Assembly (NCBI GenBank): GCA_013331945.1 | Contig: DUFK01000027.1 | Span: forward strand, 19,687 to 55,771 | Length of the DNA: 36,085 nt | Direction of reading: 5' to 3' | DNA from: Nanobdellota archaeon | GTDB lineage: Archaea; Nanobdellota; Nanobdellia; Pacearchaeales; UBA12030 | Part shown: positions 2,948-28,080 of the stretch, in pieces | How positions within the stretch are numbered: the first letter of the stretch is position 1 | Layout of the letters: every line of letters begins with the position of its first letter | Notes under the pieces: model-generated | Told to the model about the DNA's origin: nothing | Databases searched by the model: none | The model's input: the letters and a program-made list of their open reading frames with translations, nothing else | Translations under genes and position numbers: made by a program

Positions 2948-3851
2948 CTATACTCCTTATTTTATTGGCAATTTCCTCTTCATTTAATCCAGATGATCTA
3001 CACAGGTCATCATATTTCCCATAGTCTGTAATGAACTTATCTCCCACACCCATCCTATACATCTCAATATTCCCAAGTTCACCCAACACCATTGAAACTT
3101 CGTCACCTAGTCCACCCCTTATACTGGCCTCCTCTACAGTTAATACTTTCCCGGTTTTTCGTGCACTTTCTATAATCAGCTCTTTATCCATTGGTTTAAT
3201 CGTGTGGATGTAGATAATCTCAGCATCAATGCCATCTTTTTTCAGAGTTGCACTTGCTTTTGCGGCGTTATCTACCTGGGGGCCAGAAACAACTATTGTA
3301 ATGTCAATCCCGTCCTTGATAACTACTCCCCTGCCAAATTTTATAATGCTTTCATCTATCTGCTGCGTATGTTTCCTTTCAGGAAGGCGGAAATAAGTCA
3401 GTTTCCCGTTATCAAAACTCTGTTTGAATAACACCTCAAGCTCTTTAGGGCTTGAGGGGTACACTACCTCTGTATTAGGCAAACTTCTTAAAATAGCTAT
3501 ATCTGAGTATGTGTGATGCGTGCACCCTAATCCAGAATAGTCAAATGCAGACCCCACGCTAACTATATTCCCCCCCACACCCTGGTAACAGAAATCATCT
3601 TTAATCTGCTCGAAGCATCTTTCTGTCACAAATGGCGCAATACTGTGGACTACCGGTATCAATCCAGCCAAGGCCATTCCAGATGCCATACTCATCATTG
3701 ATTGCTCGCATATGCCGATGTTATAGAACCTTTCAGGATAATTTTTCCTGAACTCCCTAAGACCAAAAACACTTATATCTCCAGCTAGTATCACCAACCT
3801 CTCTTCTTTCCCGCCCATCTCGAGCATTAGCCTAACGAATTCTTTTCTCAT
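2934..3851 (-). CDS. Transketolase, C-terminal (pyrimidine-binding plus C-terminal domain) subunit
   Basis: FYNIGICEQSMMSMASGMALAGLIPVVHSIAPF is the Transket_pyr signature. About 305 aa, typical of split archaeal/bacterial transketolase B subunits. ATGA overlap with the N-terminal subunit at 3848..3851. Confidence 0.9.
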   Translation of the reverse strand: MRKEFVRLMLEMGGKEERLVILAGDISVFGLREFRKNYPERFYNIGICEQSMMSMASGMALAGLIPVVHSIAPFVTERCFEQIKDDFCYQGVGGNIVSVGSAFDYSGLGCTHHTYSDIAILRSLPNTEVVYPSSPKELEVLFKQSFDNGKLTYFRLPERKHTQQIDESIIKFGRGVVIKDGIDITIVVSGPQVDNAAKASATLKKDGIDAEIIYIHTIKPMDKELIIESARKTGKVLTVEEASIRGGLGDEVSMVLGELGNIEMYRMGVGDKFITDYGKYDDLCRSSGLNEEEIANKIRSIVANE

Positions 3852-4624
3852 TTCAGCTCTTCAAGAATTTTTTTATAAGTCTCTTCATCTGGACTCTTAT
3901 GATGCCATTCCGGATTGTTTTCCATGATGCCAATACCTTTTCCTTTAACAGTATTCGCAATTATGACCTTTGGTTTTGCAGTCTTAATACCCATCATGGC
4001 CTTTACCTTTCTCTCGATTTCCTCATGATTATGGCCATCCATTTCTTCAGCTTCCCACCCGAAACTAGTCCAAATTTTCTTATAGTCATAGTCTAGGGAA
4101 TATGCTTGAGACTTGTTTTTATCAACAATCACTAGAAGATTATCTAATAACAAATTTCTTGCGACCTGAGCGCTCTCCCATATAGTCCCCTCGTTACTCT
4201 CCCCATCTCCTATAATCACAAATACCTTATTCGGCTTTTTTAATATCTTCATTGCTGTCGCGATACCCAAACCTATTGGCAACCCATGCCCCAATGAACC
4301 GGTTGAGGCCTCTACACCAGGAACCTTATTCCTATCTGGATGACCTCCAAACATACTATCAAATTTGCAAAAGGTCTTCAACTCCTCTTTATTAAAGAAT
4401 CCGACATCCGCTAATACTGCATACAGTGCGGGACAGCCATGCCCTTTACTTAGAATAAAATAATCTCTTGCATCCCAGCTCAGGTTCTTAGGGTCAAATC
4501 TTAATATCTTCTTGTATAGAATATAGATTAAATCAATTATGCCCAAGGCACTTGGAAGATGTCCCTCTGATGAGTAGTAGACCATATCTACTATGTCCTT
4601 TCTTAAAGAATTTATCTTATCCAT
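3848..4624 (-). CDS. Transketolase, N-terminal (thiamine-diphosphate-binding) subunit
   Basis: SKGHGCPALYAVLADVGF, GSLGHGLPIGLGIA, and the TPP-binding motif IIGDGESNEGTIWESAQVA. 258 aa. Confidence 0.9.
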   Translation of the reverse strand: MDKINSLRKDIVDMVYYSSEGHLPSALGIIDLIYILYKKILRFDPKNLSWDARDYFILSKGHGCPALYAVLADVGFFNKEELKTFCKFDSMFGGHPDRNKVPGVEASTGSLGHGLPIGLGIATAMKILKKPNKVFVIIGDGESNEGTIWESAQVARNLLLDNLLVIVDKNKSQAYSLDYDYKKIWTSFGWEAEEMDGHNHEEIERKVKAMMGIKTAKPKVIIANTVKGKGIGIMENNPEWHHKSPDEETYKKILEELK

Positions 4625-12142: not shown

Positions 12143-12933
12143 ATAAAGATAGCACTAGGGAAATTTTTGAATCGTTCAAAAAATTACCTGCAAATCAACT
12201 AAAGTTAATCTATAACACTGCTGATTGGGCCTACATAAACCACTCTGAATTTAAAGCGGTTTATGATTTGCTAAGGCCTTATTTCAATAAAAAATTAAGA
12301 CTATTGGATGTCGGATGCGGTGATGGAAGGTTCCTCATACCTTTAGAGGGGAAGTTTCGCCTATATGGCCTTGATTTCTCAAAAAGTTTTCTAAGGGAAG
12401 TTAAGAAACACTGTAAATCTTGCAGAACTATATTTGGTCACGCAGAAAAATTGCCGTTCAAATCAGATTATTTTGATGTAGTGCTCTCTGTAAGGCTGAT
12501 TCAGCATCTATCAAAAAAGCAGCAGCAGAATGCAATTGATGAGATGTATAGGGTCGTCAAACCTGGAGGTAAAGTTATAGTCTTAAACTACAATAGCATG
12601 AGCGCGCTGAACATTTACAAAAAGATTTGTCAGAGCAAGACTCCTAAATTCTGGCCATTCATTAAGTGGAGATGGGTGATAGATGAGTATAACTCTCCTT
12701 CAGAACTGAAAGCTATGTTTAAAAGGGCTGGATTTAATAGAATCAGGACAACGGGATGCACATTGGGGGAGCCAGACGTATTAAGACTTACTAAAATCTC
12801 CTCCTTCCTAGAGAAAATCAGCAGGAAAATACCACTAAAATACTATGGGTTGTGTGAAAGGCTCGAAAGCTACGTAAAATCAACACCCCTAGCAAATCTA
12901 ATGAACAGGGTAGTAATAATTGGAGGGAAATAA
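12112..12933 (+). CDS. Class I SAM-dependent methyltransferase
   Basis: LLDVGCGDGRF (motif I), FDVVLSVRLIQHL, VKPGGKVIVL. Confidence 0.8.
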   Translation: MGNRRYLEELNKDSTREIFESFKKLPANQLKLIYNTADWAYINHSEFKAVYDLLRPYFNKKLRLLDVGCGDGRFLIPLEGKFRLYGLDFSKSFLREVKKHCKSCRTIFGHAEKLPFKSDYFDVVLSVRLIQHLSKKQQQNAIDEMYRVVKPGGKVIVLNYNSMSALNIYKKICQSKTPKFWPFIKWRWVIDEYNSPSELKAMFKRAGFNRIRTTGCTLGEPDVLRLTKISSFLEKISRKIPLKYYGLCERLESYVKSTPLANLMNRVVIIGGK

Positions 12934-12934
12934 G

Positions 12935-14107
12935 ATGGAAATCGAAAATAGGATAAATCTTGCCGTAAATTGGTTACTATCCTCTGGAATCCAGTCGGAA
13001 GATGGCGGATTTAACTCTTGGTATGATGTAGAGAGCAGATCTTATAAGTACAAATACTCAGAGATAACTGGCTATGGTCTTTCCACACTGGTTTCCCTAA
13101 TTGACATATCGGCAGACAGAAATAAACTGCTAGAACGAGCAAATCTAGCTGCTGAATGGCTGATTAATAACGCCACGCACGTGTGCAATGGTTTTAAGAC
13201 CCGCTCTTATTACTCTAGAGCAGATAGCAATAATTTTTACTCCTTCGATACCGGGAAGATATTTTCCTTTGATACTGGCATGGTGATCAAGGGTCTACTC
13301 AATCTTTACAAGATCAACAAAAACGAGGCGCTTTTAGATGCTTCTAAAAAAGCGGCGGAATTTTTGATTAATAAAATGAGCAAACCCGATGGCCTTTTCT
13401 ATGCTACCTATGACCCCGAACTAGGAAAAAATACAGACTCAGAAGAAAAGTGGTCCTCTCAGAGCGGTAGCTATCACGCCAAGATAGCCATACCCTTACT
13501 TAATCTTTATAGTATAACCGACAACAAATCTTTTTTAGATAGAGCTTTGTCTATATGCGATAGTTCTCTTGAGTTACAGAAGAGCGATGGAAGATTTATC
13601 TCATTCTCGAGCACTGGAGATACGCACCTTCACCCGCACATCTACACTACTGAGGGTCTGGTGTATCTAGCGTTAAACCTAAAGGATGAAAAACGAAGGT
13701 CGATTTACTTGGATTCTACTAGAAAGGCTATTGAATGGGTGTTGGACAACCAAAAACCAAATGGTGGACTTCCGCAGGCATTTTATAGCGGACAGAACAG
13801 ATTTAATATGCACGAAAGAGTGGATATAACTGCCCAAGCATTGAGGATTAGCTCTATACTTCTCTCTTTAGGTGAACTAGACAACAGATACCATGCAAAG
13901 ATCGGAAGATTATTTGAAAGACTAAAAGAATTTCAAAGAAGCATTGAGGATAAGGACCATGGCGGGTTTAATTTTGGCTATGACCATGATGGATTCCCGC
14001 TTGTCAATCATGTTAACTCATGGTGCACTATGTTCTCTCTTCAGGCGATTATGTACTATAAGCAGCTAATCTCTGGCCAAAATATAAAAGTTGACTTTTT
14101 GATATAG
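12935..14107 (+). CDS. alpha/alpha-toroid repeat protein of unknown function (prenyltransferase/terpene-cyclase-like or AGE/glucuronyl-C5-epimerase-like superfamily)
   Basis: Repeated helix-hairpin units carrying Gly/aromatic motifs: SEDGGFNSW, SEITGYGLSTL, KPDGLFYATY, KSDGRFISF, KPNGGLPQAF, KDHGGFNFGY. I prefer the ATG at 12935 because GGAGGG lies 7 nt upstream of it; the ORF-track start at 12920 is a TTG. Confidence 0.45.
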   Translation: MEIENRINLAVNWLLSSGIQSEDGGFNSWYDVESRSYKYKYSEITGYGLSTLVSLIDISADRNKLLERANLAAEWLINNATHVCNGFKTRSYYSRADSNNFYSFDTGKIFSFDTGMVIKGLLNLYKINKNEALLDASKKAAEFLINKMSKPDGLFYATYDPELGKNTDSEEKWSSQSGSYHAKIAIPLLNLYSITDNKSFLDRALSICDSSLELQKSDGRFISFSSTGDTHLHPHIYTTEGLVYLALNLKDEKRRSIYLDSTRKAIEWVLDNQKPNGGLPQAFYSGQNRFNMHERVDITAQALRISSILLSLGELDNRYHAKIGRLFERLKEFQRSIEDKDHGGFNFGYDHDGFPLVNHVNSWCTMFSLQAIMYYKQLISGQNIKVDFLI

Positions 14108-15292: not shown

Positions 15293-16420
15293 ATGAAACT
15301 TAAGAGAAGATTTAAAGTCTTGATTGTCATCGGCCCCCGTCCAGAAGTCATAAAACTAGCACCCATCTTTTTAGAGTTTAGGAAACATAAGGAGCTCAAT
15401 ACAGAGATTCTCTTAACTGGGCAACACCGCCAGCTGACAGATCAGGCAATGAAAGATTTCGGATTGAAGGCCAAATATGACCTGAACCTGATGAAAAAGG
15501 GACAAGGCCTTGAAGAATTATCAGCCAGAATATTTCTGAAATTTGGCACGATTCTTAAAAGGATAAAGCCGGACTTAGTTATTGCAGAGGGTGATACAAC
15601 TACCACTGCCATCTGTTCCATCTGCTGCTACTACCAAAAAATACCATTCGCACACGTTGAGGCCGGTCTGAGGAGTTTCGATAAGTTTCAGCCATTTCCG
15701 GAAGAGATAAACCGGATGATTGCAGATATCATCGCGGACTTGCATTTTGCACCGACAAATGACGCCAGAGAAAACCTTATTGCCAGCGGAATTGACGGTA
15801 AAGGCATATTTGTGACAGGTAATACTGTTATTGATAGCTTGCTTTTATTATCTAAAAAAAACCATAAATTCCGTGATACTAACCTAAACTCCATAAAAGA
15901 AGGAAAGCCCCTAATACTGGTAACAATGCATAGAAGAGAAAGCTTTGGCAGGCCAATAAAAGAAGTCATAGCAGCTTTGAAAGAGTTAAATAAGGAGGAT
16001 GTCCAAATAGTTTACCCTGTTCATTTAAATCCTAATGTTAAAGGCCCCGTATACAAATCTCTTTCTGGTTGCAAGAACATCATCCTTACAGACCCTCTTA
16101 ACTACTTAGATTTTATTAACCTGATGAAAAAATGCTCTTTTATACTCACTGACTCGGGCGGAGTCCAGGAAGAAGCCCCGACCTTTGGGAAGCCAATATT
16201 AGTTCTAAGGAATGTGACCGAAAGACCGGAAGGCGTAAAAGCTGGAATAGCCAAGTTGGTTGGCACGAATAGAAGAAAAATATTGAGGTTCAGCAATCTG
16301 CTTCTAAACAACAAAAAATTCTACTCCAGTATGGCCAAAAAAAAGGGCCTTTATGGTGCAGGGGATGCATCAAAGAAGATAGTGAAAATCGTAAAAACCA
16401 GATTCCTGAATTCAAATTAG
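15293..16420 (+). CDS. wecB: UDP-N-acetylglucosamine 2-epimerase (non-hydrolysing)
   Basis: IGPRPEVIKLAPI, HVEAGLRSFDKFQPFPEEINR, DSGGVQEEAPTFGKPILVLR. Confidence 0.9.
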   Translation: MKLKRRFKVLIVIGPRPEVIKLAPIFLEFRKHKELNTEILLTGQHRQLTDQAMKDFGLKAKYDLNLMKKGQGLEELSARIFLKFGTILKRIKPDLVIAEGDTTTTAICSICCYYQKIPFAHVEAGLRSFDKFQPFPEEINRMIADIIADLHFAPTNDARENLIASGIDGKGIFVTGNTVIDSLLLLSKKNHKFRDTNLNSIKEGKPLILVTMHRRESFGRPIKEVIAALKELNKEDVQIVYPVHLNPNVKGPVYKSLSGCKNIILTDPLNYLDFINLMKKCSFILTDSGGVQEEAPTFGKPILVLRNVTERPEGVKAGIAKLVGTNRRKILRFSNLLLNNKKFYSSMAKKKGLYGAGDASKKIVKIVKTRFLNSN

Positions 16421-17370
16421 ACTCTTTCTCTCCAATAATTGAGCAGGTCTCTAAGAGTCACATCGAACGGAATCTCCGGTTTCCACCCGGTTTTTTCTCT
16501 AAATTTAGTACAATCTCCAAGTAAAAGCGGGACATCGCTTGGCCTTAATCTATTCTCTTCTTGTTTTACCTCTATATTGGCATTGCTCATCTGTAAGAGC
16601 ATATTTAACATCTCATCAATCCTCCACGCCTTTCCAGCGCAAATGTTGTAAATTTCTCCATAATCACATTTCTCCACAGATAGCAAGTACGCCCTTACAA
16701 TATCTCTCACATCCGTCCAATCTCTTTTTGCCTCTAAACTACCAACATGAATTACGGGCTCTTTCTTTCCTTTCTCAATCTCTGCTATTTGCTTTGCAAA
16801 ATTTGATGTCGCAAAAACTTCTCCCCTTCTCGGCCCAGTGTGATTGAACGCCCTTGTAACAACTGTCTTTAGCCCGTAAGAATGATGATACTGCCTTGAA
16901 AGATTGTCTTGTGCTATCTTGCTGACTGCATAGGGGGATAAAGGTCTTAGAGGATTCGTCTCTTTTATAGGCACTTCATCTTCTTTAACTAGTCCATACT
17001 CCTCACTGCTTCCTGCCACTTGTATTATGGGATTAAGGTTGAGTTGCCTTACTGCTTCAAGGATGTTCAGATTTCCAACGATGTTCGTTGTTAATGTTTC
17101 TTCCGGAGCTGTAAAACTGTGTTGAACAAAGCTCTGTGATGCGAGGTGAAATATATAATCCGGCTCTATGGCCTTGATAGTCTTTCTAATAGAATTCGAA
17201 TCTCTGATATCTGCTTCATGGACCTTGACTTTGTCTTTTATGTGCACAATATTCTCATTTCTGCTTCTTGGCCTTTCGATACCATGCACTTCAAGCCCTT
17301 TTTCTAGCAGTAGCTCTGCAAGATGACTTCCGACGAAGCCAGTTATTCCGGTTATGAGCGCTCTTTTCAT
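16417..17370 (-). CDS. gmd: GDP-mannose 4,6-dehydratase family SDR (Gmd; Rmd-type reductase not excluded)
   Basis: MKRALITGITGFVGSHLAELLLEKGLEVHGI is colinear with the E. coli Gmd N-terminus. Also GSSEEYG, SPYAVSKIA (YxxxK), AFNHTGPRRGE, RDWTDVRD, GWKPEI. I start it at the ATG at 17370; the 37 extra residues in the ORF-track version (to 17481) precede the Rossmann fold and look like translated spacer. Confidence 0.8.
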   Translation of the reverse strand: MKRALITGITGFVGSHLAELLLEKGLEVHGIERPRSRNENIVHIKDKVKVHEADIRDSNSIRKTIKAIEPDYIFHLASQSFVQHSFTAPEETLTTNIVGNLNILEAVRQLNLNPIIQVAGSSEEYGLVKEDEVPIKETNPLRPLSPYAVSKIAQDNLSRQYHHSYGLKTVVTRAFNHTGPRRGEVFATSNFAKQIAEIEKGKKEPVIHVGSLEAKRDWTDVRDIVRAYLLSVEKCDYGEIYNICAGKAWRIDEMLNMLLQMSNANIEVKQEENRLRPSDVPLLLGDCTKFREKTGWKPEIPFDVTLRDLLNYWRERV

Positions 17371-17475
17371 TTTGTTTTTATTTCCAGACGCAGAATGAAC
17401 GCGTTCCTCCCCGCATAAACTTTTCCTTCGGCATTTGTTTGTGCACCTTTTCTCCACCTCTAAAGCGGAAGGAAA

Positions 17476-17495
17476 CCACACACTTTAGTGTGCGG
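17476..17495 (-). other. Stem-loop in the 154-bp spacer between the ColD-like gene and gmd
   Basis: The minus strand reads CCGCACAC-TAAA-GTGTGTGG, an 8-bp stem (one G-U pair) with a 4-nt loop, followed by TTTCCTTCCGCTTT. Possible attenuator, terminator or processing site. Confidence 0.3.
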
Positions 17496-17524
17496 AGGAT
17501 GTCATCCTTAAGTTCCAAACAATT

Positions 17525-18745
17525 TTAAACCTTTCCCAAAATCTCCCCAAAGGCCCCTATAACATAATCCAGGTCCTCTTGCGTCAAGTATTGATGACAA
17601 CCAATGTATAACGCATGTGCTCCAAGATATTCTGCGTTAGGAATCTTTCCTTCATACTCTTTTCTTAGATAAGAATAAACCGGCTGATGGAGCGGAATTG
17701 CCCCGAATAATGGCCTTGTTTCAATCCCCCTCGTCACAAGCTCCTCCCTCAACTTCTTTCTTGAGATCTTTGATTGGTCTTTTATAACAAAAGGATAGCC
17801 AAGGAAGCTTACATCTTCATTGTAAGTTGGCAGTTTCAGTATGTCAGAGAATTTTTCCATCCCCTCATTCAAGTATTTGACGTTTTCGAGCCTTCTCTTT
17901 ATTATCCAGTCGGCCTTCTTAATCTGCTCAACAGCTAGCGCAGCCTGAATCTCAGTTGTCTTGAAATTATATCCAGGAATGTCGTGATAGTACCGGGGAT
18001 GCTGGTCTATCTCGTGCTCTGTGTTATGGAATTTCTCCTTCTTCATAACAGCTTCTTCTTGTCCCTCTCTATCCCATGCTCTTCCATGCGCCTTTACCTT
18101 GTCGATAAACCTGACAAGTTCTAAATCATCAGTTGTCACAGCCCCGAGCTCACCGACCTGTATATTATGGGCGATAAAGAAAGAGAAGACACCAAAATCC
18201 GACAACGATCCGGTTCTTTTACCATTATATTTCGTACCATGAGCCTCGCATGAATCTTCTATGACTGCAAGCCCATATTTTTTTGCAATACTATTTATCT
18301 TATTCATATCGCAAGGGTACCCCATTAAATGCACTGGCATTATGGCCGAATAATCATCTACGTCCGCCTTCTCTAGGTATTCTTTTAAGCTTTCCGCGTT
18401 CAAGCTGAAGTCATCCATATTCACATCGACAAAGGCCGGCTGGTAATTTGTGAGCTTGATGGAATTTACAGTCGCAATAAAAGTTAGTGGAGAGGTTATG
18501 ACTTTAGACCATTCATTTGCCTTTGGGAAATGTTCACAATGCTTCATAGCTTCCAGTCCGGCAATGATTGCGGAGGTTCCAGAATTCATGGCTATACAAT
18601 ACTTTGTCCCAACATATCTTGCCCAGTCTGATTCAAACTGCTTTACTTGCGGACCTTCTGACAGCCAATTAGAATCCAGCACCCGGTTTATAGCAGATTT
18701 TTCAGCTTCACTAATTTTAACATCTCCAACTCTGACGTCTCTCAT
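17525..18745 (-). CDS. DegT/DnrJ/EryC1-family enzyme with His replacing the PLP lysine: ColD/E1-type NDP-4-keto-6-deoxyhexose 3-dehydratase candidate
   Basis: Family motifs LSEGPQVKQFE, AMNSGTSA, IEDSCEAHG, and FSFFIAHNIQVGELG, where aminotransferases have FSFxxxKxxxxGEGG. The His codon is CAT at 18167..18169. The ColD-like insertion AHGRAW...PGYNF is present. I prefer the ATG at 18745; the ORF-track start at 18796 is a TTG inside the promoter region. Confidence 0.7.
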   Translation of the reverse strand: MRDVRVGDVKISEAEKSAINRVLDSNWLSEGPQVKQFESDWARYVGTKYCIAMNSGTSAIIAGLEAMKHCEHFPKANEWSKVITSPLTFIATVNSIKLTNYQPAFVDVNMDDFSLNAESLKEYLEKADVDDYSAIMPVHLMGYPCDMNKINSIAKKYGLAVIEDSCEAHGTKYNGKRTGSLSDFGVFSFFIAHNIQVGELGAVTTDDLELVRFIDKVKAHGRAWDREGQEEAVMKKEKFHNTEHEIDQHPRYYHDIPGYNFKTTEIQAALAVEQIKKADWIIKRRLENVKYLNEGMEKFSDILKLPTYNEDVSFLGYPFVIKDQSKISRKKLREELVTRGIETRPLFGAIPLHQPVYSYLRKEYEGKIPNAEYLGAHALYIGCHQYLTQEDLDYVIGAFGEILGKV

Positions 18746-18823: not shown

Positions 18824-19891
18824 ATGGTTAAGTATAAACAACTCCTTAAGGGAATTCAGAGGAGAATTAGTTACTTGTTGTGGCTTGTTCTTGACCCAAG
18901 TAAATTTGTTAAAATCAAACACAAAAAGATAAAAAGGATTCTCGTAATCAATCTCGGATTTATAGGGGACCTGCTAGCTACAACACCTATGATATCTTCT
19001 CTGAAGAATAAATTCGATGTAGATATATCTGTGCTGGTAAATCATCAGATGGGGGAAGTTTTGCTTGGGAACAAAGATGTATCTCAAGTGATTACTTACA
19101 AAGGGAAGTTCTCAGATGACTTGGAGAGCCTAAGGCGAGAAAATTTCGACCTGGCTGTTATCGTATGGCCAGGCTCCCTGAAAGTTTCGCTTCTGTGCCT
19201 TCTTGCCAGAATCCCTTATAGGATAGGTACTACACAAACAGGTCTATTGGAGGGTAAGGGATATTTCCTGACTAGAAAGGTTTGGCCTTCGCTGATGGAA
19301 AAGCACAAGGTCCTGGAAAATTTGGATATCGCCGCTCTTGTAGGGGCAGAAACCAAGAATCCGTGTGTGGGCTTTTCCTTTTCGAAGGAAGATGAGAGAT
19401 TTGTTGAAAGATTCTTATTTAAGGAAAAGATTCGCGGGCCAATTGTGGTTATTCACGCAGGTAAAAGGGGGAAGTTCTATGTAGAATACTCATGGCCTCC
19501 GGAAAATTTTGCCAAGGTCGCAGATTTCTTGATTGATTCTTATGGAGCAAGCGTAATCCTCTCTGGCGGAAAAGGAGAAGAAGCGATAGCGGATAAAATC
19601 CGCAGCATGGTGCAGGAAAAGAACAAGAAGAGAGTACACATCGTCGCAGGAAAATTCAATCTTAGGCAGTTTGCGGCTCTCCTAAAAAGAAGCAAACTCT
19701 TGATAAGCATAGACACAGCAGCAGTTCATATCGCTTCAGCTTCTCATATAAAAGTACCCATGGTTATTCTGAATGTAAAGTATCCTGGAATCTGGCATCC
19801 TTATGTTCCAAGGAATAGGTATAAAATACTGAACAGGCCAACTATCCGCGGGGTCGAGGCGGCTGCCAGGGGTTTTTTAGACAAAAAATGA
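18824..19891 (+). CDS. GT9 family glycosyltransferase (LPS heptosyltransferase-like)
   Basis: N-terminal ILVINLGFIGDLLATTPMISSLK, IHAGKRG, GGKGEE, and the donor-site motif LLISIDTAAVHIASA. Confidence 0.75.
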   Translation: MVKYKQLLKGIQRRISYLLWLVLDPSKFVKIKHKKIKRILVINLGFIGDLLATTPMISSLKNKFDVDISVLVNHQMGEVLLGNKDVSQVITYKGKFSDDLESLRRENFDLAVIVWPGSLKVSLLCLLARIPYRIGTTQTGLLEGKGYFLTRKVWPSLMEKHKVLENLDIAALVGAETKNPCVGFSFSKEDERFVERFLFKEKIRGPIVVIHAGKRGKFYVEYSWPPENFAKVADFLIDSYGASVILSGGKGEEAIADKIRSMVQEKNKKRVHIVAGKFNLRQFAALLKRSKLLISIDTAAVHIASASHIKVPMVILNVKYPGIWHPYVPRNRYKILNRPTIRGVEAAARGFLDKK

Positions 19892-21086: not shown

Positions 21087-23039
21087 ATGGGAATGAAAAC
21101 AAAAATATTACTAATAAAACTTGGCGCTCTTGGTGATGTCCTTAGGACGACTTCTCTTCTGCCAGCCATAAAAGACAAGTGGAAAGATTCTGAAGTCACC
21201 CTTGTTACAAAACAGGTGCAGGACATAATCCAATTCCTAGAAAATGTTCCCGGAATATTTAAGACGATATCCTCTGATTCCGACTCGATTGCACAGCTGG
21301 AGAAAGAGAAGTTCGACTTCGTCTTCAATCTAGATGAAGATGAAGAAGCTTGTTCTATCGCCTCGCGGATGAAATGTGGGGAGCTTAGAGGATTTTACTT
21401 CAAGGATGGAAGAATATCCTACACGAAATCCGCTAAAGAATGGTTTGACATGTCTGCCTTGGGGAAGAAAGAACCGAGAATCCGCGGCATGCCGCATAAC
21501 GATCATCTGAAGAAGAAAAATCGAAAGACTTACCAGCAGTTAATGTCCGAGATTATTGGTGTGAATCCTAGAAAATGTTCTCCCATCTATGTTTTAGATG
21601 AAGGCCAGAGGGCATTTGCAACTTCTTTTGTCAAGAGATACGACATTCAAACGAAGGATTTGATCGTGGGATTGAACACCGGCGCTGGTGGAAGATGGCC
21701 GGCGAAGAGCCTCAGCATCGAAAAGACCAGGAAGCTGATTGAAAAACTCCATTCTGTCCTTGGTGTAAAGATAATCTTGTTCGGGGGAAAGAGCGAGGCA
21801 GAAAGAAACAAAGAAATCCTCACAAAGTCCGGCGGGAAAGTTATAGATGCCGGCTGTGACAACACTCTTAAGGAATTTGCAGCATTAACAAGCCTTTGCC
21901 ACATCTTCGTGACTTCCGATTCTCTCGGGATGCATATCGCAATCTCACTCAAGAAGAAGGTTGTCGCATTCTTCGGTCCAACTTCTGCTTCAGAGATAGA
22001 ACTTTTCGGTCTTGACACGAAAATAATTTCCAAAAGCAGCTGTTATTGTTGTTACAAGCCAGATTGTAAAGCTGATAGAGAATACTCCCTAGAGGAAATA
22101 TTTTGGGCAACCAAAGGCCTCCTGGATTCCAGCCTCAAAGCCACCGCTACAATAATAGTAACTGCCTTCAAAGAGCCTCGTCTTGGGGAGACAATAAAAT
22201 CTATCCTTAAGCAAAAGATAGACTACGCTTATGAGCTCCTTGTAGTGGTCCCGGACAAGGAGTCTATAGGATTGGTTAAATCCTACTCTAAAAAATACAA
22301 ACAAGTTAAACTTTTCAAAGATCCTGGCAAGGGCAAGAGCTTTGCGTTAAACTTGCTCTTTAAGAAATTCAACAAAAAAGGCGGGGAGATCCTAATATTC
22401 ACCGATGGAGATGTAACCCTTGGAGAAAATTCAATCAACGAGATAATGCTTGCATTCCGCGATTCTTCTGTCGGCTGCGTCAGTGGCAGACCGGTATCTT
22501 CGAACAGCAAAAATAACAAATTCGGATTCTGGAGCCATCTTCTTACAGATGCGGGCGCGCATCAGATCAGGAAAGAGCTTGATACGCAGGGAGAATTTTT
22601 TGAATGCAGCGGATATCTATTTGGATTCAGGAATAATGGCCTCGTGGAGAAAATCCCATTAGACGTGGCAGAGGACGCGATAATCCCTTATTACTTCTGG
22701 AAAAAAGGGTATAGTATAAGATATGTTGACAGCGCTAGAGTGGTCGTAAAATATCCCGAAAATTTTGATGACTGGATAAAGCAGAGAAACAGGAGCGCTA
22801 AAGCACACGAATCACTGACGAAATACGCACCAGATTTCCCTAAGATAAAAAGCTTTAGGAACGAGGCCTCGCGGGTCTTTCAGGCAATTAAATATGCCAG
22901 GACACCGAAAGAGCTAAAATGGACTCTAGAGCTGATTTCCGCGCGCCTGTATATGTGGGGAAATGTCTTCTACGAAACACGTTTTAAGGGGAAGCATTAT
23001 CATGATGCCTGGGAGCGCATTGAATCAACAAAAGTTTAA
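21087..23039 (+). CDS. Bifunctional fusion: N-terminal GT9 (heptosyltransferase-like) plus C-terminal GT2 glycosyltransferase
   Basis: The GT9 part (about aa 1-345) has ILLIKLGALGDVLRTTSLLPAIK, LNTGAGGRWPAK, FVTSDSLGMHIAISL. The linker contains SCYCCYKPDC. The GT2 part (about aa 353-650) has TIIVTAFKEPRLGETIKSILKQ, FTDGDVTL (DxD), and VAEDAIIP. Confidence 0.75.
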   Translation: MGMKTKILLIKLGALGDVLRTTSLLPAIKDKWKDSEVTLVTKQVQDIIQFLENVPGIFKTISSDSDSIAQLEKEKFDFVFNLDEDEEACSIASRMKCGELRGFYFKDGRISYTKSAKEWFDMSALGKKEPRIRGMPHNDHLKKKNRKTYQQLMSEIIGVNPRKCSPIYVLDEGQRAFATSFVKRYDIQTKDLIVGLNTGAGGRWPAKSLSIEKTRKLIEKLHSVLGVKIILFGGKSEAERNKEILTKSGGKVIDAGCDNTLKEFAALTSLCHIFVTSDSLGMHIAISLKKKVVAFFGPTSASEIELFGLDTKIISKSSCYCCYKPDCKADREYSLEEIFWATKGLLDSSLKATATIIVTAFKEPRLGETIKSILKQKIDYAYELLVVVPDKESIGLVKSYSKKYKQVKLFKDPGKGKSFALNLLFKKFNKKGGEILIFTDGDVTLGENSINEIMLAFRDSSVGCVSGRPVSSNSKNNKFGFWSHLLTDAGAHQIRKELDTQGEFFECSGYLFGFRNNGLVEKIPLDVAEDAIIPYYFWKKGYSIRYVDSARVVVKYPENFDDWIKQRNRSAKAHESLTKYAPDFPKIKSFRNEASRVFQAIKYARTPKELKWTLELISARLYMWGNVFYETRFKGKHYHDAWERIESTKV

Positions 23040-26205: not shown

Positions 26206-27004
26206 ACGCCCTCCTATAGCCCTTTGTTTTTTTAGATAAAGTTAGGATTATTTCAGGTAAATTTTTTATCACTTCCAGCATCATTCGTGAGCTGCTCATC
26301 TCGCCCAATTTTTTTCTTGTGCCTCTTTTAAGGATTTGCCTGAGCATGTACCCGAGATCGTAATCTTCCATATGGAGTATGGGATTTGGAGTGAAAGCTA
26401 CCTTATATCCTGCCTTGCATATTCTTTGCTTCAGGTCAAAATCCTCTCCTGCGGGCTTGTCAAAATACTCATCAAAACCCTTGAACTTGTGGAATATATC
26501 TGCTTTGTAGGACATATTGTTTGTGAATCCGACAGGTACTTCTTCTCTTCCTATTATTGTCTTGTTTCTCATCTTATGGAGGCTTTTATTCTTTATAATT
26601 TCCAATGCTGAAAAGATATTGTTTTTCGATGGCTGTAATGGCCCGCCGATTCCGACAATCTCTGGAAATCTTCTATAGGTGCTGATTATGTTGCCAATCC
26701 ATTTTCTTGGTGCGACACAATCTGCATCGGTGAACGCAAATATCACTCCCCGCGCATTCCTAGCCCCTAGATTCCTTGCTGCCGCAGGACCTTTCCTGCT
26801 CTGCTTCAGGATTTTAACGCTCTTTTTCCACTTTCTGCTTCTTATGGCCTCTAGGGTGCCGTCTGTTGAGCCATCGTCTACTACTACTATTTCGAGTTTT
26901 CCAACATAATTCTGGGATTCTACACTCTTTATACAATTGATTAAAGAGCGTTTACTATTGTATGTAGCAATTATTACACTTACGAATGGGAGTTTGCCTA
27001 TCAT
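26177..27004 (-). CDS. GT2 glycosyltransferase
   Basis: VSVIIATYNSKRSL, VVVDDGSTDGT, FAFTDADCV (DxD). Confidence 0.85.
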   Translation of the reverse strand: MIGKLPFVSVIIATYNSKRSLINCIKSVESQNYVGKLEIVVVDDGSTDGTLEAIRSRKWKKSVKILKQSRKGPAAARNLGARNARGVIFAFTDADCVAPRKWIGNIISTYRRFPEIVGIGGPLQPSKNNIFSALEIIKNKSLHKMRNKTIIGREEVPVGFTNNMSYKADIFHKFKGFDEYFDKPAGEDFDLKQRICKAGYKVAFTPNPILHMEDYDLGYMLRQILKRGTRKKLGEMSSSRMMLEVIKNLPEIILTLSKKTKGYRRAYEDENRTDK

Positions 27005-28050
27005 CTTCTCTTAGTGATGCGATTTACAGCTTTAATTATCTCATTCGGAGAAACATCTTTTACTCTATACTTTTTGTAATCAGTCCTAATCCCGGATAGC
27101 TCCTCGATCGACTGCCTAAATGCCTTGTACGTTTCACCATTTCTGACAACTACATGTCTCCCGCCATATGGGGCCGTTCTCCTATAGTCTGTTGATAGGA
27201 AGATTGCAATTGTTGGAACTTTCATCGCAACTGCAATATGCATCAATCCAGAGTCATTCGATATAAACAGCTTGCATTTTCCGATAATGGTTGCGACCCT
27301 TCTTATATCAATATTCTTGACAATCGTTATTTTATTTTTTGCCCTTTTATTCACTAATCCTCTTATCCCCTCAAGATTCTTCTCATCCGGTCCCAAAAAG
27401 ATTAAAATTCGCGAACCCCCATTTATCTCTGCAATCCATTCAGAAACTTTTGCAAAGCTTTCGAGAGGCCATCTTTTTTCTATCATGCCTCTTTCGACAC
27501 TTGTCCCGGGGTGAATTCCTATGATAGTTCTCTCTTTGAAATTCCTAATAAATTCATCAGCAAATATTTTTTCTTTTGTGCTTGGCCATAACTCAAGTGC
27601 ATGCCCACCTCCAGTGTTTATACCAAGAGGTTTTATCAAATTCAAATTCTGCTCAACATCATGAGCAATTTTGAGGGGAATTCTTACATTTTGGAGAGAA
27701 ACTAGATTACTCTCGTAGTTATGAGTTATTTTTGTTTTAGCTCCAATCAACCAAGCTAAGACGTTATAATGCGGCTGCGCGGCCGGAATGGTAGTTATGC
27801 TAATATCATACCTCTCTTTTCTAAGTCTTCTAATCAATCCCAGATTCTGTAATATCCCACCCTGGATTTTTTTATTTATGAGATAGATATTATCTAAGTA
27901 AGGACACCCCCCCATTATCTCTAAAGAGCTCTTTAACCCAACAAGCAAATCAACCCTGGCCTTTGGATAAGCTTCCCTTAGCTTCTGTAGCACTGGGACT
28001 GCAAGTAATGTATTTCCTATACCTGGAATGGCTATGATTATTATTTTCAT
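27001..28050 (-). CDS. GT9 family glycosyltransferase (LPS heptosyltransferase-like)
   Basis: MKIIIIAIPGIGNTLLAVPVLQKLREAYP, IHPGTSVERG, LFISNDSGLMHIAVAM. I prefer the ATG at 28050: AAGGGT precedes it, and it lies about 38 nt from the TATA-like box, the same spacing as at aglB. The ORF-track alternative is 28068. Confidence 0.75.
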   Translation of the reverse strand: MKIIIIAIPGIGNTLLAVPVLQKLREAYPKARVDLLVGLKSSLEIMGGCPYLDNIYLINKKIQGGILQNLGLIRRLRKERYDISITTIPAAQPHYNVLAWLIGAKTKITHNYESNLVSLQNVRIPLKIAHDVEQNLNLIKPLGINTGGGHALELWPSTKEKIFADEFIRNFKERTIIGIHPGTSVERGMIEKRWPLESFAKVSEWIAEINGGSRILIFLGPDEKNLEGIRGLVNKRAKNKITIVKNIDIRRVATIIGKCKLFISNDSGLMHIAVAMKVPTIAIFLSTDYRRTAPYGGRHVVVRNGETYKAFRQSIEELSGIRTDYKKYRVKDVSPNEIIKAVNRITKRR

Positions 28051-28080
28051 CTTACCCTTGCCAATCATTAGTGCAGAAAA

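What the first reader, a model, noticed from the sequence alone, without database searches (positions are those of the whole stretch)
16417..18745. Lys-to-His DegT-family enzyme next to Gmd: predicted GDP-3,6-dideoxyhexose (colitose-like) branch
The DegT/DnrJ/EryC1-family protein reads FSFFIAHNIQVGELG. Aminotransferases of this family read FSF(F/H)xxKxxxxGEGG, for example FSFFGNKIITTGEGG in perosamine synthase and FSFHAIKNITCAEGG in ArnB, both as I recall them.

The Schiff-base Lys column holds a His (CAT, 18167..18169). In this family that substitution marks the PMP-dependent 3-dehydratases ColD (GDP-4-keto-6-deoxymannose 3-dehydratase) and E1/DdhC, not transaminases. The AHG(R/W)...PGYN insertion and the C-terminal NAEYL...G(N/C)HQ block also match my recollection of ColD.

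I see no Cys-rich E1-type [2Fe-2S] tail, which favours a ColD-type enzyme. A Gmd-like dehydratase lies directly downstream, and an Fcl/ColC-like epimerase-reductase lies at 934..1920. Together these give ColB-ColD-ColC logic.

3,6-dideoxyhexoses are classic Gram-negative O-antigen sugars. Their presence in an archaeal agl locus would be new to me.
Basis: partly seen in the sequence, partly recalled or inferred. Interest (0 to 1): 0.72.

Follow-up and report, generated by a model that had tools for sequence, protein, structure and literature searches.

The report
Archaeal sugar 3-dehydratase with short Gmd
An archaeal protein-glycosylation gene island carries a sugar-aminotransferase relative whose catalytic lysine is replaced by histidine, which marks it as a probable 3-deoxygenating enzyme for a GDP-linked sugar; this is a plausible but untested route to a 3,6-dideoxy sugar in an archaeon, and the "colitose" label is not established.

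Summary
The DegT-family ORF 17525..18745(-) reads FSFFIAHNIQVGELG. Its His193 (CAT 18167..18169) falls in the Schiff-base Lys column in HMMER and MAFFT alignments, aligned with ColD His188 and E1 His220. The His is present in all 120 closest homologues.

In NJ trees the protein falls inside a single clade of His-type enzymes that excludes all 44 Lys-type sequences sampled. It is not a ColD orthologue (31% identity). It belongs to a large uncharacterised third clade found in archaea and bacteria.

Most members of that clade carry an E1-like four-Cys loop. They usually sit between a canonical gmd and a ColC-like SDR, which argues for a GDP-linked substrate. The window's sub-clade has lost the loop cysteines, so a cluster-free, ColD-like mechanism is inferred.

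The downstream "Gmd" is not canonical. Its best solved relatives are Rmd (46% identity) and the C. jejuni heptose 4,6-dehydratase (43%). It does keep the Gmd-type PRRG motif, so it is probably a dehydratase.

The Fcl-like gene at 934..1920 is a true Fcl orthologue, not the ColC-like partner. The final sugar is therefore undetermined: colitose, a D-series 3,6-dideoxyhexose or a 3,6-dideoxyheptose all remain possible. I rate it a new member of a known kind, of moderate interest.

The parts
17525..18745 (-). His-type DegT/DnrJ/EryC1-family protein (406 aa): predicted PMP/PLP-dependent nucleotide-sugar 3-dehydratase
   Evidence: Pfam PF01041 314.8 bits. Best solved relatives are E1 at 185 bits and ColD at 180 bits, aligned end to end. 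It sits inside the His-type clade. AF2 model pLDDT 83, pTM 0.84.
18167..18169 (-). CAT codon for His193, in the Schiff-base Lys column
   Evidence: It aligns with E1 His220, ColD His188 and the Lys of ArnB, WecE and 7b0d.
18005..18085 (-). Insertion loop (residues 221-247, GRAWDREGQEEAVMKKEKFHNTEHEID) with no Cys. The main family has GR.C.C..C.{6}C here and E1 has GRDCYCAPGCDNTC.
   Evidence: The AF2 model has low confidence for residues 222-254.
18248..18250 (-). Cys166 (EDSCEAHG), the only retained equivalent of an E1 cluster ligand (the E1 Cys193 column)
   Evidence: The E1 ligand identities come from my recollection of Agnihotri et al. 2004.
16417..17370 (-). Short (317 aa) SDR of the Gmd/Rmd/DmhA family, co-oriented immediately downstream: probable GDP-sugar 4,6-dehydratase
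   Evidence: Pfam GDP_Man_Dehyd 301 bits. NCBIfam gmd 217 bits against a cutoff of 415. PDB hits: Rmd 2pk3 292 bits, DmhA 7us5 242, E. coli Gmd 183. The pairing is kept in an 82%-identical relative, with a 9-bp gap.
16822..16848 (-). FNHTGPRRG motif of the SDR. The PRRG form is shared with Gmd and DmhA dehydratases; both solved Rmd reductases read GPGQ.
18824..19891 (+). GT9-family glycosyltransferase, transcribed divergently from the 3-dehydratase gene (78-bp spacer); a candidate transferase for the product
   Evidence: Pfam Glyco_transf_9 80.8 bits. Below-cutoff matches to heptosyltransferase models. Its role is inferred from position only.
934..1920 (-). True Fcl (GDP-L-fucose synthase) orthologue. 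Another consumer of GDP-4-keto-6-deoxymannose and a possible, unproven 5-epimerase/4-reductase for the 3-deoxy product.
   Evidence: NCBIfam GDPFucSynFcl 437.9 bits against a cutoff of 500. 51% identity to E. coli Fcl, and it clusters with E. coli Fcl rather than with the ColC-like clade.

Best explanation
The gene at 17525..18745(-) encodes a vitamin-B6-dependent nucleotide-sugar 3-dehydratase. The co-oriented short SDR (16417..17370) oxidises and dehydrates a GDP-sugar, most likely GDP-mannose, to the 4-keto-6-deoxy intermediate.

The PMP form of the DegT enzyme then forms a ketimine at C4. His193 removes the C4' proton and the 3-OH is expelled. The enzyme has no cluster-binding cysteines and no E3-type reductase is nearby, so the resulting enamine is probably released hydrolytically, as in ColD. 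That would give GDP-4-keto-3,6-dideoxy-D-mannose plus ammonia, with PMP regenerated from L-glutamate.

A separate reductase then fixes the stereochemistry. Candidates are the Fcl orthologue or another SDR of the island. A glycosyltransferase of the island would add the sugar to the lipid-linked glycan that AglB transfers.

Shown: the His substitution, membership of the His-type clade, loss of the loop cysteines, and the gene neighbourhoods. Inferred: the activity itself, the GDP specificity, the ColD-like turnover, and the identity of the final sugar.
For: His in the Lys column, invariant in homologues.

Phylogeny:
- All His-type sequences, including E1, ColD and the window protein, are monophyletic against 17 Lys-type in 98.5% of 200 NJ bootstraps.
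- With 168 sequences and the motif columns removed, 124 of 124 His-type fall in one clade holding 0 of 44 Lys-type. The split is exact in 70 of 100 bootstraps.
- Among the best 150 representatives of 1.84 billion proteins, the top 17 are all His-type.

Active site. Cofactor and diphosphate residues are conserved: S55-G56-T57, D164, S188, N260, and R344, which aligns with the ColD Arg331 column in IECRP/IETRP.

GDP link. A canonical Gmd (50-70% identical to E. coli Gmd) lies within three genes of the family member in 30 of 76 loci. The usual order is Gmd -> enzyme -> Fcl-family SDR.

No cluster. The loop reads GRAWDREGQEE. No ferredoxin-reductase-like gene was found among the window ORFs.

The SDR as a dehydratase:
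- It has the S-x-E and YxxxK catalytic residues and the PRRG motif of Gmd and DmhA.
- PRRG-type short SDRs occupy the slot of canonical Gmd (L002, L010, L053).
- GxxQ-type (Rmd-like) SDRs occur only where a canonical Gmd is also present (L006, L043, L047).
- A true Fcl in the island also needs a Gmd activity, and no canonical Gmd is present in the window.

Selection. Full-length homologues at 89, 82 and 74% identity keep all family-invariant residues.
Against: - No member of this clade has been characterised. The nearest characterised enzymes are only 31-33% identical.
- Overall similarity to Lys-type transaminases is almost as high (7b0d 185.6 bits against E1 185.1). Fold comparison cannot separate them.
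- The residue after the catalytic His is Asn, where ColD and E1 have His (AHN against SHH/AHH).
- The SDR's best solved match is a reductase (Rmd), not a dehydratase.
- No mannose-1-phosphate guanylyltransferase, phosphomannomutase or canonical gmd is in the window, so GDP specificity rests on other genomes.
- The trees are neighbour-joining trees on modest samples, not maximum-likelihood trees.
- A ColD-like turnover is inferred only from what is absent.
Confidence: 0.6

Rival explanations
1. Two-gene cassette giving a D-series sugar. The DegT enzyme is a 3-dehydratase, but the neighbouring SDR is, or is also, the C4 ketoreductase, as in Rmd or the bifunctional Gmds of P. aeruginosa, A. thermoaerophilus and PBCV-1. 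The pair would then yield a GDP-3,6-dideoxy-D-hexose of tyvelose-like configuration with no 5-epimerisation. Gmd activity would come from the same SDR or from a gene elsewhere.
For: - The best solved match of the SDR is Rmd: 292 bits, 46% identity.
- PRRG-type loci (window, L002, L010, L053) have no Fcl/ColC-like SDR after the dehydratase, whereas canonical-Gmd loci do.
- Rmd-like SDRs do sit beside this enzyme family in L006, L043 and L047.
- Three characterised Gmds also have reductase activity (bioRxiv 10.1101/854612; PMC9415975).
Against: - The window SDR has PRRG where both characterised Rmds have GPGQ.
- As I recall, King et al. 2009 proposed the second Arg (Arg185) as the feature that enables 4,6-dehydration.
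- Bifunctionality cannot be read from sequence.
Confidence: 0.18
2. Heptose version. The SDR is a GDP-D-glycero-D-manno-heptose 4,6-dehydratase (DmhA-like), and the DegT enzyme makes a GDP-4-keto-3,6-dideoxyheptose, as in Campylobacter jejuni HS:5/HS:11. GT9-family enzymes would transfer it.
For: - The SDR is 43% identical to C. jejuni DmhA (242 bits), well above E. coli Gmd at 37% and 183 bits.
- Three GT9 (heptosyltransferase-family) genes lie in the window, one of them divergent from the DegT gene.
- In L053 the orthologous SDR-DegT pair lies a few kb downstream of GmhA-like, GmhB-like, transaldolase and nucleotidyltransferase genes.
- The window carries a split transketolase, a possible sedoheptulose-7-phosphate source.
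- A PLP-dependent C3-dehydratase acting on GDP-6-deoxy-4-keto-heptose is established chemistry (PMC10440746).
Against: - No gmhA, hddA, gmhB or hddC was found in the window or in the 10 kb beyond either end that I could read.
- The L053 matches are below the curated cutoffs: GmhA 92 against 209, HddC 101 against 300.
- In L053 the pair is directly preceded by a mutase and a mannose-1-phosphate-guanylyltransferase-like gene.
- L002 and L028 show no heptose genes.
- Most family members sit next to canonical Gmd.
Confidence: 0.12
3. Not a 3-dehydratase. The protein would be a His-bearing transaminase, an inactive paralogue, or an enzyme of other PMP chemistry acting on a non-GDP sugar.
For: - Bit scores to Lys-type transaminases are as high as to E1 and ColD, and the fold is indistinguishable.
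- SpnQ shows aminotransferase activity without its reductase (PMC8987622).
- The motif AHN differs from AHH/SHH.
Against: - The protein nests within the His-type clade.
- His and the cofactor residues are invariant across hundreds of homologues.
- It is consistently linked to 4,6-dehydratases.
- Relatives are fused to RmlD-like 4-reductases.
Confidence: 0.08

Closest known systems
ColD / WbdK (GDP-4-keto-6-deoxy-D-mannose 3-dehydratase; E. coli O55, Y. pseudotuberculosis, C. jejuni HS:5)
   Same: - DegT fold, with His in the Lys column.
- No Fe-S cysteines.
- Shares the AHG...W, PGYN and NAEYL...G(C/N)HQ blocks and the Arg331-equivalent (R344).
- The predicted substrate is a GDP-4-keto-6-deoxy sugar made by an adjacent 4,6-dehydratase.
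- The predicted turnover is glutamate-dependent and needs no reductase.
   Different: - Only 31% identical, while characterised ColDs are 62-67% identical to one another (PMC10440746).
- It branches in a different subclade.
- The motif is A-H-N, not S-H-H.
- The insertion loop is longer.
- There is no adjacent ColC-type partner.
- It is paired with a short Rmd/DmhA-like SDR, not a canonical Gmd.
- The host is an archaeon and the setting is an AglB island, not an O-antigen cluster.
E1 / DdhC / RfbH (CDP-4-keto-6-deoxy-D-glucose 3-dehydrase, Yersinia, Salmonella)
   Same: - It is the best solved match for the family profile (241 bits).
- His220 aligns with His193.
- The insertion loop is of similar length.
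- The Cys193-equivalent is retained.
- The main family has a Cys-rich loop aligned on E1's GRDCYC.
   Different: - The window protein lacks C251, C253 and C261.
- No E3-type reductase and no CDP-glucose genes lie next to it.
- The family context points to GDP, not CDP.
- A separate gene 50% identical to E1 lies just outside the window.
Uncharacterised 'AHNIQ' clade with a CxCx2Cx6C loop (Methanoperedens, Bathyarchaeia, Methanobacteriaceae, DPANN, Scalindua, Omnitrophota and others; JGI auto-name 'CDP-6-deoxy-D-xylo-4-hexulose-3-dehydrase')
   Same: 53-58% identical over the full length, with all family-invariant residues shared. This is the protein's own family.
   Different: The window sub-clade (74-100% identity: P0001-P0005 and L001) has lost the loop cysteines. 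It is followed by the short SDR rather than preceded by it.
Rmd (GDP-6-deoxy-D-lyxo-4-hexulose reductase, A. thermoaerophilus 2pk3), DmhA (C. jejuni GDP-manno-heptose 4,6-dehydratase 7us5) and Gmd, as comparators for the neighbouring SDR
   Same: - Same SDR subfamily, with the S-x-E and YxxxK catalytic residues.
- 46% identical to Rmd, 43% to DmhA and 37% to Gmd.
- The PRRG motif is as in DmhA and Gmd.
   Different: - It falls below the curated Gmd threshold.
- It is shorter than Gmd (317 aa against about 345-375).
- It differs from both Rmds at the PRRG/GPGQ motif.

Membership tests
PMP-dependent nucleotide-sugar 3-dehydratases (His-type clade of the DegT/DnrJ/EryC1 family: ColD, E1, SpnQ) | Fold-type I aminotransferase (DegT) fold | tested here: met
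   Pfam PF01041 314.8 bits. AF2 model pLDDT 83. Foldseek TM about 0.8 to ColD, E1 and perosamine synthase.
PMP-dependent nucleotide-sugar 3-dehydratases (His-type clade of the DegT/DnrJ/EryC1 family: ColD, E1, SpnQ) | Catalytic His replacing the Schiff-base Lys | tested here: met
   His193 aligns with E1 His220, ColD His188 and the Lys of ArnB, WecE and 7b0d. Defining role as described in PMC8987622.
PMP-dependent nucleotide-sugar 3-dehydratases (His-type clade of the DegT/DnrJ/EryC1 family: ColD, E1, SpnQ) | Phylogenetic placement with characterised 3-dehydratases rather than with transaminases | tested here: met
   NJ trees only. The His-type clade is recovered in 98.5% of bootstraps. 124 of 124 His-type against 0 of 44 Lys-type with the motif columns removed, an exact split in 70 of 100 bootstraps.
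PMP-dependent nucleotide-sugar 3-dehydratases (His-type clade of the DegT/DnrJ/EryC1 family: ColD, E1, SpnQ) | C3 deoxygenation of an NDP-4-keto-6-deoxy sugar | not testable with these tools
   Needs an enzyme assay.
ColD (GDP-specific, cluster-free) | Close sequence relationship to characterised ColDs | tested here: not met
   31% identity. ColD groups with the E1-like branch, and the window protein sits in the sister clade. Characterised ColDs share 62-67% identity.
ColD (GDP-specific, cluster-free) | No [2Fe-2S] cysteine motif | tested here: met
   The loop GRAWDREGQEEAVMKKEKF has no Cys.
ColD (GDP-specific, cluster-free) | GDP-4-keto-6-deoxymannose as substrate | tested here: inconclusive
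   Context only. Canonical Gmd lies within three genes in 30 of 76 family loci. R344 aligns with the ColD Arg331 column. The window's own partner is a non-canonical SDR.
ColD (GDP-specific, cluster-free) | Partnered with ColC (GDP-colitose synthase) | tested here: not met
   No ColC-like SDR is adjacent. The Fcl-like gene at 934..1920 belongs to the true Fcl clade.
E1 / DdhC (CDP-specific, [2Fe-2S], E3-dependent) | C-X57-C-X1-C-X7-C cluster ligands (from my recollection of Agnihotri et al. 2004) | tested here: not met
   Only the first Cys (Cys166) is kept. The three loop Cys are absent.
E1 / DdhC (CDP-specific, [2Fe-2S], E3-dependent) | E3-type reductase and CDP-glucose genes alongside | tested here: not met
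   None among the window ORFs. An RfbF-like gene lies outside the window, next to a different, E1-like DegT gene.
Gmd (GDP-mannose 4,6-dehydratase), for the SDR at 16417..17370 | Reaches the curated equivalog score | tested here: not met
   TIGR01472 scores 217.1 bits against a cutoff of 415.
Gmd (GDP-mannose 4,6-dehydratase), for the SDR at 16417..17370 | Catalytic Ser/Thr-x-Glu, Tyr-x3-Lys and the Arg185-type PRRG motif | tested here: met
   GSSEEYG, SPYAVSK and FNHTGPRRG are present. Both solved Rmds read GPGQ at the last motif.
Fcl versus ColC, for the gene at 934..1920 | Groups with characterised Fcl rather than with the SDR clade that follows this dehydratase family | tested here: met
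   For Fcl: 51% identity to E. coli Fcl and the same NJ clade. The NCBIfam Fcl score of 437.9 is just under the cutoff of 500. No authentic ColC sequence was available for comparison.

The most novel reading that the evidence does not exclude
This subsurface archaeon decorates its AglB-dependent glycan with 3,6-dideoxy sugars. They would be made by cluster-free 3-dehydratases that arose twice in one genome by loss of the Fe-S loop: the GDP-linked enzyme in the window, and an enzyme 50% identical to E1, next to an RfbF-like gene just outside it. In the window, a compact two-gene cassette (short PRRG-type Gmd/Rmd-like SDR plus His-type DegT) would supply a GDP-3,6-dideoxyhexose or GDP-3,6-dideoxyheptose not yet described in Archaea. 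The wider four-Cys 'AHNIQ' family next to gmd would be a GDP-specific, Fe-S-dependent type of 3-dehydratase. That combination is not among the three characterised types: ColD (GDP, no cluster), E1 (CDP, cluster) and SpnQ (TDP, cluster).
Probability: 0.3. Interest if true: 0.62.

Novelty: new member of a known kind. Interest (0 to 1): 0.42.

Why it matters
3,6-Dideoxyhexoses are textbook Gram-negative O-antigen sugars. A published survey of 303 archaeal genomes found most rare sugars absent from Archaea (PMC7725333). In the library I could search, I found no paper reporting a 3,6-dideoxy sugar or a characterised 3-dehydratase in an archaeon.

If the prediction holds, archaeal N-glycans include this sugar class. 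His-type 3-dehydratases would then be far more widespread than the three studied enzymes suggest. This one clade occurs in Methanoperedens, Bathyarchaeia, Methanobacteriaceae, DPANN archaea and many bacterial phyla.

The Cys-bearing and Cys-less members within one clade would offer a natural experiment on how E1-type (reductive) and ColD-type (hydrolytic) deoxygenation interconvert.

In practice, automatic names for this family conflict: 'aminotransferase', 'perosamine synthetase', 'CDP-...-3-dehydrase'. The context analysis argues for a GDP-linked 3-dehydratase.

Tried and rejected
- Fold comparison of the AF2 model against PDB. ColD, E1, GDP-perosamine synthase and other transaminases all score TM about 0.8, so it does not discriminate.
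- Reading the primary ColD and Rmd structure papers (PMC2242600, PMC2533848, PMC4381037). They are not held. The roles of ColD Arg219/Arg331, the E1 ligand list and the Gmd Arg185 proposal therefore rest on my memory.
- An authentic ColC for the Fcl/ColC test. I could not locate one in the collections without coordinates. I used the SDR clade that follows the dehydratase in other genomes as a proxy.
- A link between the split transketolase and the dehydratase. A split transketolase recurs in L002 and L028, but in L002 it sits beside a histidyl-tRNA synthetase gene and may be housekeeping. Left as a note.
- Heptose genes. They were found only in L053 and below curated cutoffs, and none in L002 or L028.
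- My first idea that the neighbour is simply Rmd. I set it aside after the PRRG/GPGQ comparison and the co-occurrence pattern.
- My first idea that a Cys-less loop is unusual. I rejected it: 75 of 122 His-type representatives have no Cys in the loop.
- Look-ups of two window proteins by exact sequence (GT2 216..998 and Fcl 934..1920). Both failed. The flank was reached through the transketolase gene instead.
- A first large NJ bootstrap run timed out. I re-ran it with a numpy implementation.

Full report
1. WHAT IS THERE

The finding's span, 16417..18745, covers two co-oriented minus-strand genes.

- Upstream gene: 17525..18745, 406 aa, ATG at 18745. It is a DegT/DnrJ/EryC1-family protein (Pfam 314.8 bits).
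- Downstream gene: 16417..17370, 317 aa, starting MKRALITG. It is an extended SDR of the GDP_Man_Dehyd family (301 bits).

The reverse-complement read of 18100..18240 gives FSFFIAHNIQVGELG, with CAT at 18169..18167.

2. IS THE HIS IN THE LYSINE COLUMN?

Yes.

- phmmer against all PDB chains aligns the protein end to end with E1 (3bcx, 185 bits) and ColD (2gms, 180 bits). His193 falls on E1 His220, which is Lys in the H220K mutant 3bb8, and on the catalytic His of ColD.
- In a MAFFT L-INS-i alignment with 17 Lys-type relatives, including E. coli ArnB and WecE (fetched) and the Archaeoglobus veneficus transaminase 7b0d, His193 occupies their Lys column.
- The His is not a private mutation. The motif [FY]S[FY][FY][IV][AT]HN[IV] matched in 119 of the 120 closest homologues (53-100% identity).
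- Cofactor and diphosphate positions are conserved: S55-G56-T57, D164, S188, N260, and R344 in the ColD IECRP column. I know the roles of the ColD residues only from memory of the Holden-laboratory papers, which the library does not hold.

3. DOES IT GROUP WITH DEHYDRATASES?

Raw similarity does not decide this.

- The best Lys-type hit (7b0d, 185.6 bits) equals E1.
- A family profile ranks E1 at 241, ColD at 225, 7b0d at 218 and perosamine synthase at 214 bits.
- Foldseek on a good AF2 model (pLDDT 83) cannot separate them.

Trees do decide it.

- In an NJ tree of 45 sequences, all His-type proteins form one clade in 98.5% of 200 bootstraps. The clade holds the window protein, its family, E1, ColD and E1-like paralogues.
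- I repeated the test on 168 sequences: 124 His-type and 44 Lys-type. Most came from an exhaustive HMMER search of 1.84 billion representatives. Residues 190-197 were removed so that the motif itself could not drive the result.
- All 124 His-type sequences fall in one clade containing no Lys-type sequence. The split is exact in 70 of 100 bootstraps and nearly exact in most of the rest.
- Among the 150 best representatives, the top 17 are all His-type, and 122 of the 150 are His-type overall.

The limit is that these are neighbour-joining trees.

4. WHICH KIND OF 3-DEHYDRATASE?

It is not ColD by descent. Identity is 31% to ColD and 33% to E1. The characterised GDP-specific enzymes are 62-67% identical to each other (PMC10440746). 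The protein belongs to a third, uncharacterised clade.

The surprise is in the insertion loop.

- Every homologue at 53-58% identity reads GR.C.C..C.{6}C. This four-Cys motif has its first two cysteines aligned on E1's GRDCYC.
- Only the window's own sub-clade lacks it. That sub-clade comprises P0001-P0005 and the Nanoarchaeota MAG locus L001, at 74-100% identity. The window reads HGRAWDREGQEE, and P0005 retains two Cys.
- The window protein keeps Cys166, which is in the column of E1 Cys193.

It is reached by secondary loss within a Cys-bearing clade, not by kinship with ColD. Also, E1's ligands are a loop plus Cys193, not a tail.

Cys-less His-type enzymes are common. 75 of 122 His-type representatives have no Cys in this loop. 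The loss is not remarkable in itself.

The mechanistic distinction is described in PMC8987622. In ColD the enamine is hydrolysed and PMP is regenerated from glutamate. In E1 and SpnQ the intermediate is reduced through [2Fe-2S] and a reductase. No ferredoxin-reductase-like gene is among the window's ORFs.

5. WHICH NUCLEOTIDE?

I fetched 80 loci from GTDB species genomes, called ORFs, and clustered them.

- Of 76 loci with a family member, 30 have a canonical Gmd (50-70% identical to E. coli Gmd) within three genes, usually immediately upstream.
- The gene immediately downstream is most often an Fcl-family SDR, 32-39% identical to E. coli Fcl.

The common architecture is therefore Gmd -> His-DegT -> Fcl/ColC-like. 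That is colitose-type logic, and it argues that the family uses a GDP-4-keto-6-deoxy sugar. JGI's automatic name (CDP-6-deoxy-D-xylo-4-hexulose-3-dehydrase) is probably wrong about the nucleotide.

6. THE NEIGHBOUR IN THE WINDOW

It is not a canonical Gmd.

- NCBIfam gmd scores 217 bits against a cutoff of 415.
- Its best solved relatives are:
  - the reductase Rmd of A. thermoaerophilus (292 bits, 46% identity);
  - the C. jejuni GDP-manno-heptose 4,6-dehydratase DmhA (242 bits, 43%);
  - E. coli Gmd (183 bits, 37%).

Is it a dehydratase or a reductase? Both types share the S-x-E and YxxxK residues. They differ at one motif.

- Gmd reads FNHESPRRGETF and DmhA reads THSGPRRSDVF.
- Both solved Rmds read FNHIGPGQ.
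- The window SDR reads FNHTGPRRGEVF.

As I recall, King et al. 2009 (FEBS J 276:2686) proposed that this Arg (Arg185) is what enables 4,6-dehydration in Gmd. I could not retrieve that paper.

Context agrees with the motif.

- PRRG-type short SDRs take the place of canonical Gmd directly upstream of the dehydratase in L002, L010 and L053.
- GxxQ-type SDRs appear only where a canonical Gmd is also present: L006, L043 and L047.

The pairing in the window is conserved in an 82%-identical relative, where the two genes are 9 bp apart.

I conclude that the SDR is probably the 4,6-dehydratase. A reductase role or a bifunctional role remains a live rival.

7. THE "ColC" GENE

The gene at 934..1920 is 51% identical to E. 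coli Fcl. It clusters with E. coli Fcl, apart from the SDR clades that sit at position +1 of the dehydratase elsewhere.

It lies in a different operon, 216..4624 on the minus strand. In order of transcription that operon holds a split transketolase, a UXS-like SDR, Fcl and a GT2.

So the window encodes GDP-fucose synthesis, which also needs a Gmd activity. It has no dedicated ColC-like partner. Fcl might process the 3-deoxy intermediate, but nothing here shows that it does. The final sugar is open.

8. THE HEPTOSE ALTERNATIVE

In favour:
- the SDR's similarity to DmhA;
- three GT9 (heptosyltransferase-family) genes in the window, at 18824..19891, 21087..23039 and 27001..28068;
- in L053, GmhA-like, GmhB-like, transaldolase and nucleotidyltransferase genes upstream of the orthologous pair.

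Against:
- the L053 matches are below curated cutoffs;
- the L053 pair is directly preceded by a mutase and a ManC-like gene;
- L002 and L028 show no such genes;
- no heptose-nucleotide genes lie in the window or in the flanks I could read.

I give this alternative about 0.12.

9. SETTING

The window is a glycosylation island. It holds AglB/STT3 (32683..35529), a GT4 phosphotransferase, a geranylgeranyl-reductase-like gene, many glycosyltransferases and methyltransferases, an Asn-synthase homologue and a UDP-GlcNAc 2-epimerase.

Beyond AglB lie SecY, ribosomal protein L15, prefoldin and an EMC3/TMCO1-like gene, which is an archaeal chromosomal context. The same sequence occurs in NCBI assembly GCA_013330725.1 and in subsurface metagenomes. 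The closest GTDB relative of several island genes is a Nanoarchaeota MAG.

Just outside the window start is a second His-type DegT gene.

- It is 438 aa, 50% identical to Yersinia E1, and reads YSFYAAHHIFMGEGG.
- It has also lost the loop cysteines (WGRVYNHDD).
- Beside it are two SDRs and an RfbF-like nucleotidyltransferase.

The organism therefore appears to carry two cluster-free 3-dehydratase homologues. One is probably GDP-linked and the other CDP-linked.

10. NOVELTY AND VERDICT

The chemistry proposed is known (ColD). The protein is a distant member of the known His-type 3-dehydratase group, in a clade with no characterised member. That clade is widespread in archaeal and bacterial MAGs.

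I found no paper reporting 3,6-dideoxy sugars or a characterised 3-dehydratase in Archaea. A genome survey reported most rare sugars absent from Archaea (PMC7725333).

- Verdict: new member of a known kind.
- Observation: confirmed.
- Interpretation: partly supported. It is a 3-dehydratase next to a 4,6-dehydratase. It is neither a ColD orthologue nor a demonstrated colitose pathway.
- Interest: about 0.4.

Noticed in passing
L093:15637-16953 (minus strand), about 1.6-3 kb beyond the window's start; neighbours L093:16935-20777: A second His-type DegT gene in the same island. It is 438 aa, 50% identical to Yersinia E1, with motif YSFYAAHHIFMGEGG. It also lacks E1's loop cysteines (WGRVYNHDD) while keeping the Cys193-equivalent. 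Beside it are two SDRs, a 404-aa ORF with no Pfam hit and an RfbF-like nucleotidyltransferase. This looks like a cluster-free CDP-type 3,6-dideoxyhexose module.
   Followed up: partly
Related loci L002-L080 (for example L005:10001-11227) and proteins P0006-P0120: The main family carries a conserved GR.C.C..C.{6}C loop whose first two Cys align on E1's GRDCYC, but it lacks the E1 Cys193-equivalent (Ala there). It sits next to canonical gmd in 30 of 76 loci. This may be a GDP-linked, metal- or Fe-S-bearing 3-dehydratase type that has not been characterised.
   Followed up: partly
window 216..4624 (minus strand): An operon of five tightly packed or overlapping genes. In order of transcription: split transketolase (N-terminal part 3848..4624, C-terminal part 2934..3851), a UXS-like SDR (1892..2947), a true Fcl (934..1920) and a GT2 (216..998). 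A ThDP enzyme inside a sugar-nucleotide operon could mean sedoheptulose-7-phosphate supply or two-carbon branching of a keto sugar. This is unexplained.
   Followed up: partly
window 18824..19891, 21087..23039, 27001..28068: Three GT9 (heptosyltransferase-family) domains in an archaeal AglB island, one of them fused to a GT2 domain. All score below the curated heptosyltransferase cutoffs.
   Followed up: partly
L053:1788-8793: Upstream of the orthologous short-SDR plus His-DegT pair in an archaeal MAG: a GmhA-like SIS protein, a GmhB-like phosphatase, a transaldolase/FSA, an SDR, two nucleotidyltransferases and an archaeal GlmM-type mutase. The set is suggestive of a heptose-nucleotide pathway.
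   Followed up: partly
L093:13028-13318 against L094:12726-13691: The Fcl gene is intact (321 aa) in one metagenome variant of this island. In another variant a gene is called only as a 96-aa fragment there, so GDP-fucose synthesis may be dispensable or variable in the population.
   Followed up: no
Related loci, cluster c4 (for example L028:12876-14315): A B12-binding radical-SAM protein of about 480 aa lies within six genes of the dehydratase family in 24 of 81 loci. It could be a C-methyltransferase acting on the deoxy sugar. It is absent from the window.
   Followed up: no
Proteins P0121, P0124, P0149, P0152, P0157, P0159, P0162, P0173: His-type relatives occur as fusions: with RmlD-like 4-reductases (P0162, P0173), GT2 (P0149, P0152, P0159), GT1 (P0157) and a methyltransferase (P0121). 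One is interrupted by an intein with a LAGLIDADG domain (P0124).
   Followed up: partly
L023:3476-4705, L027:3887-5116, L037:6028-7254: Methanobacteriaceae loci carry a 408-409-aa Gmd/Rmd-family variant with the motif FNHEGAGRG near the dehydratase. This is neither the Gmd form nor the Rmd form of the motif.
   Followed up: no
window 12920..14107: A 395-aa ORF with only faint matches to squalene-hopene-cyclase C-terminal and pectate-lyase repeats, embedded among glycosyltransferase and methyltransferase genes. Its function is unknown.
   Followed up: no
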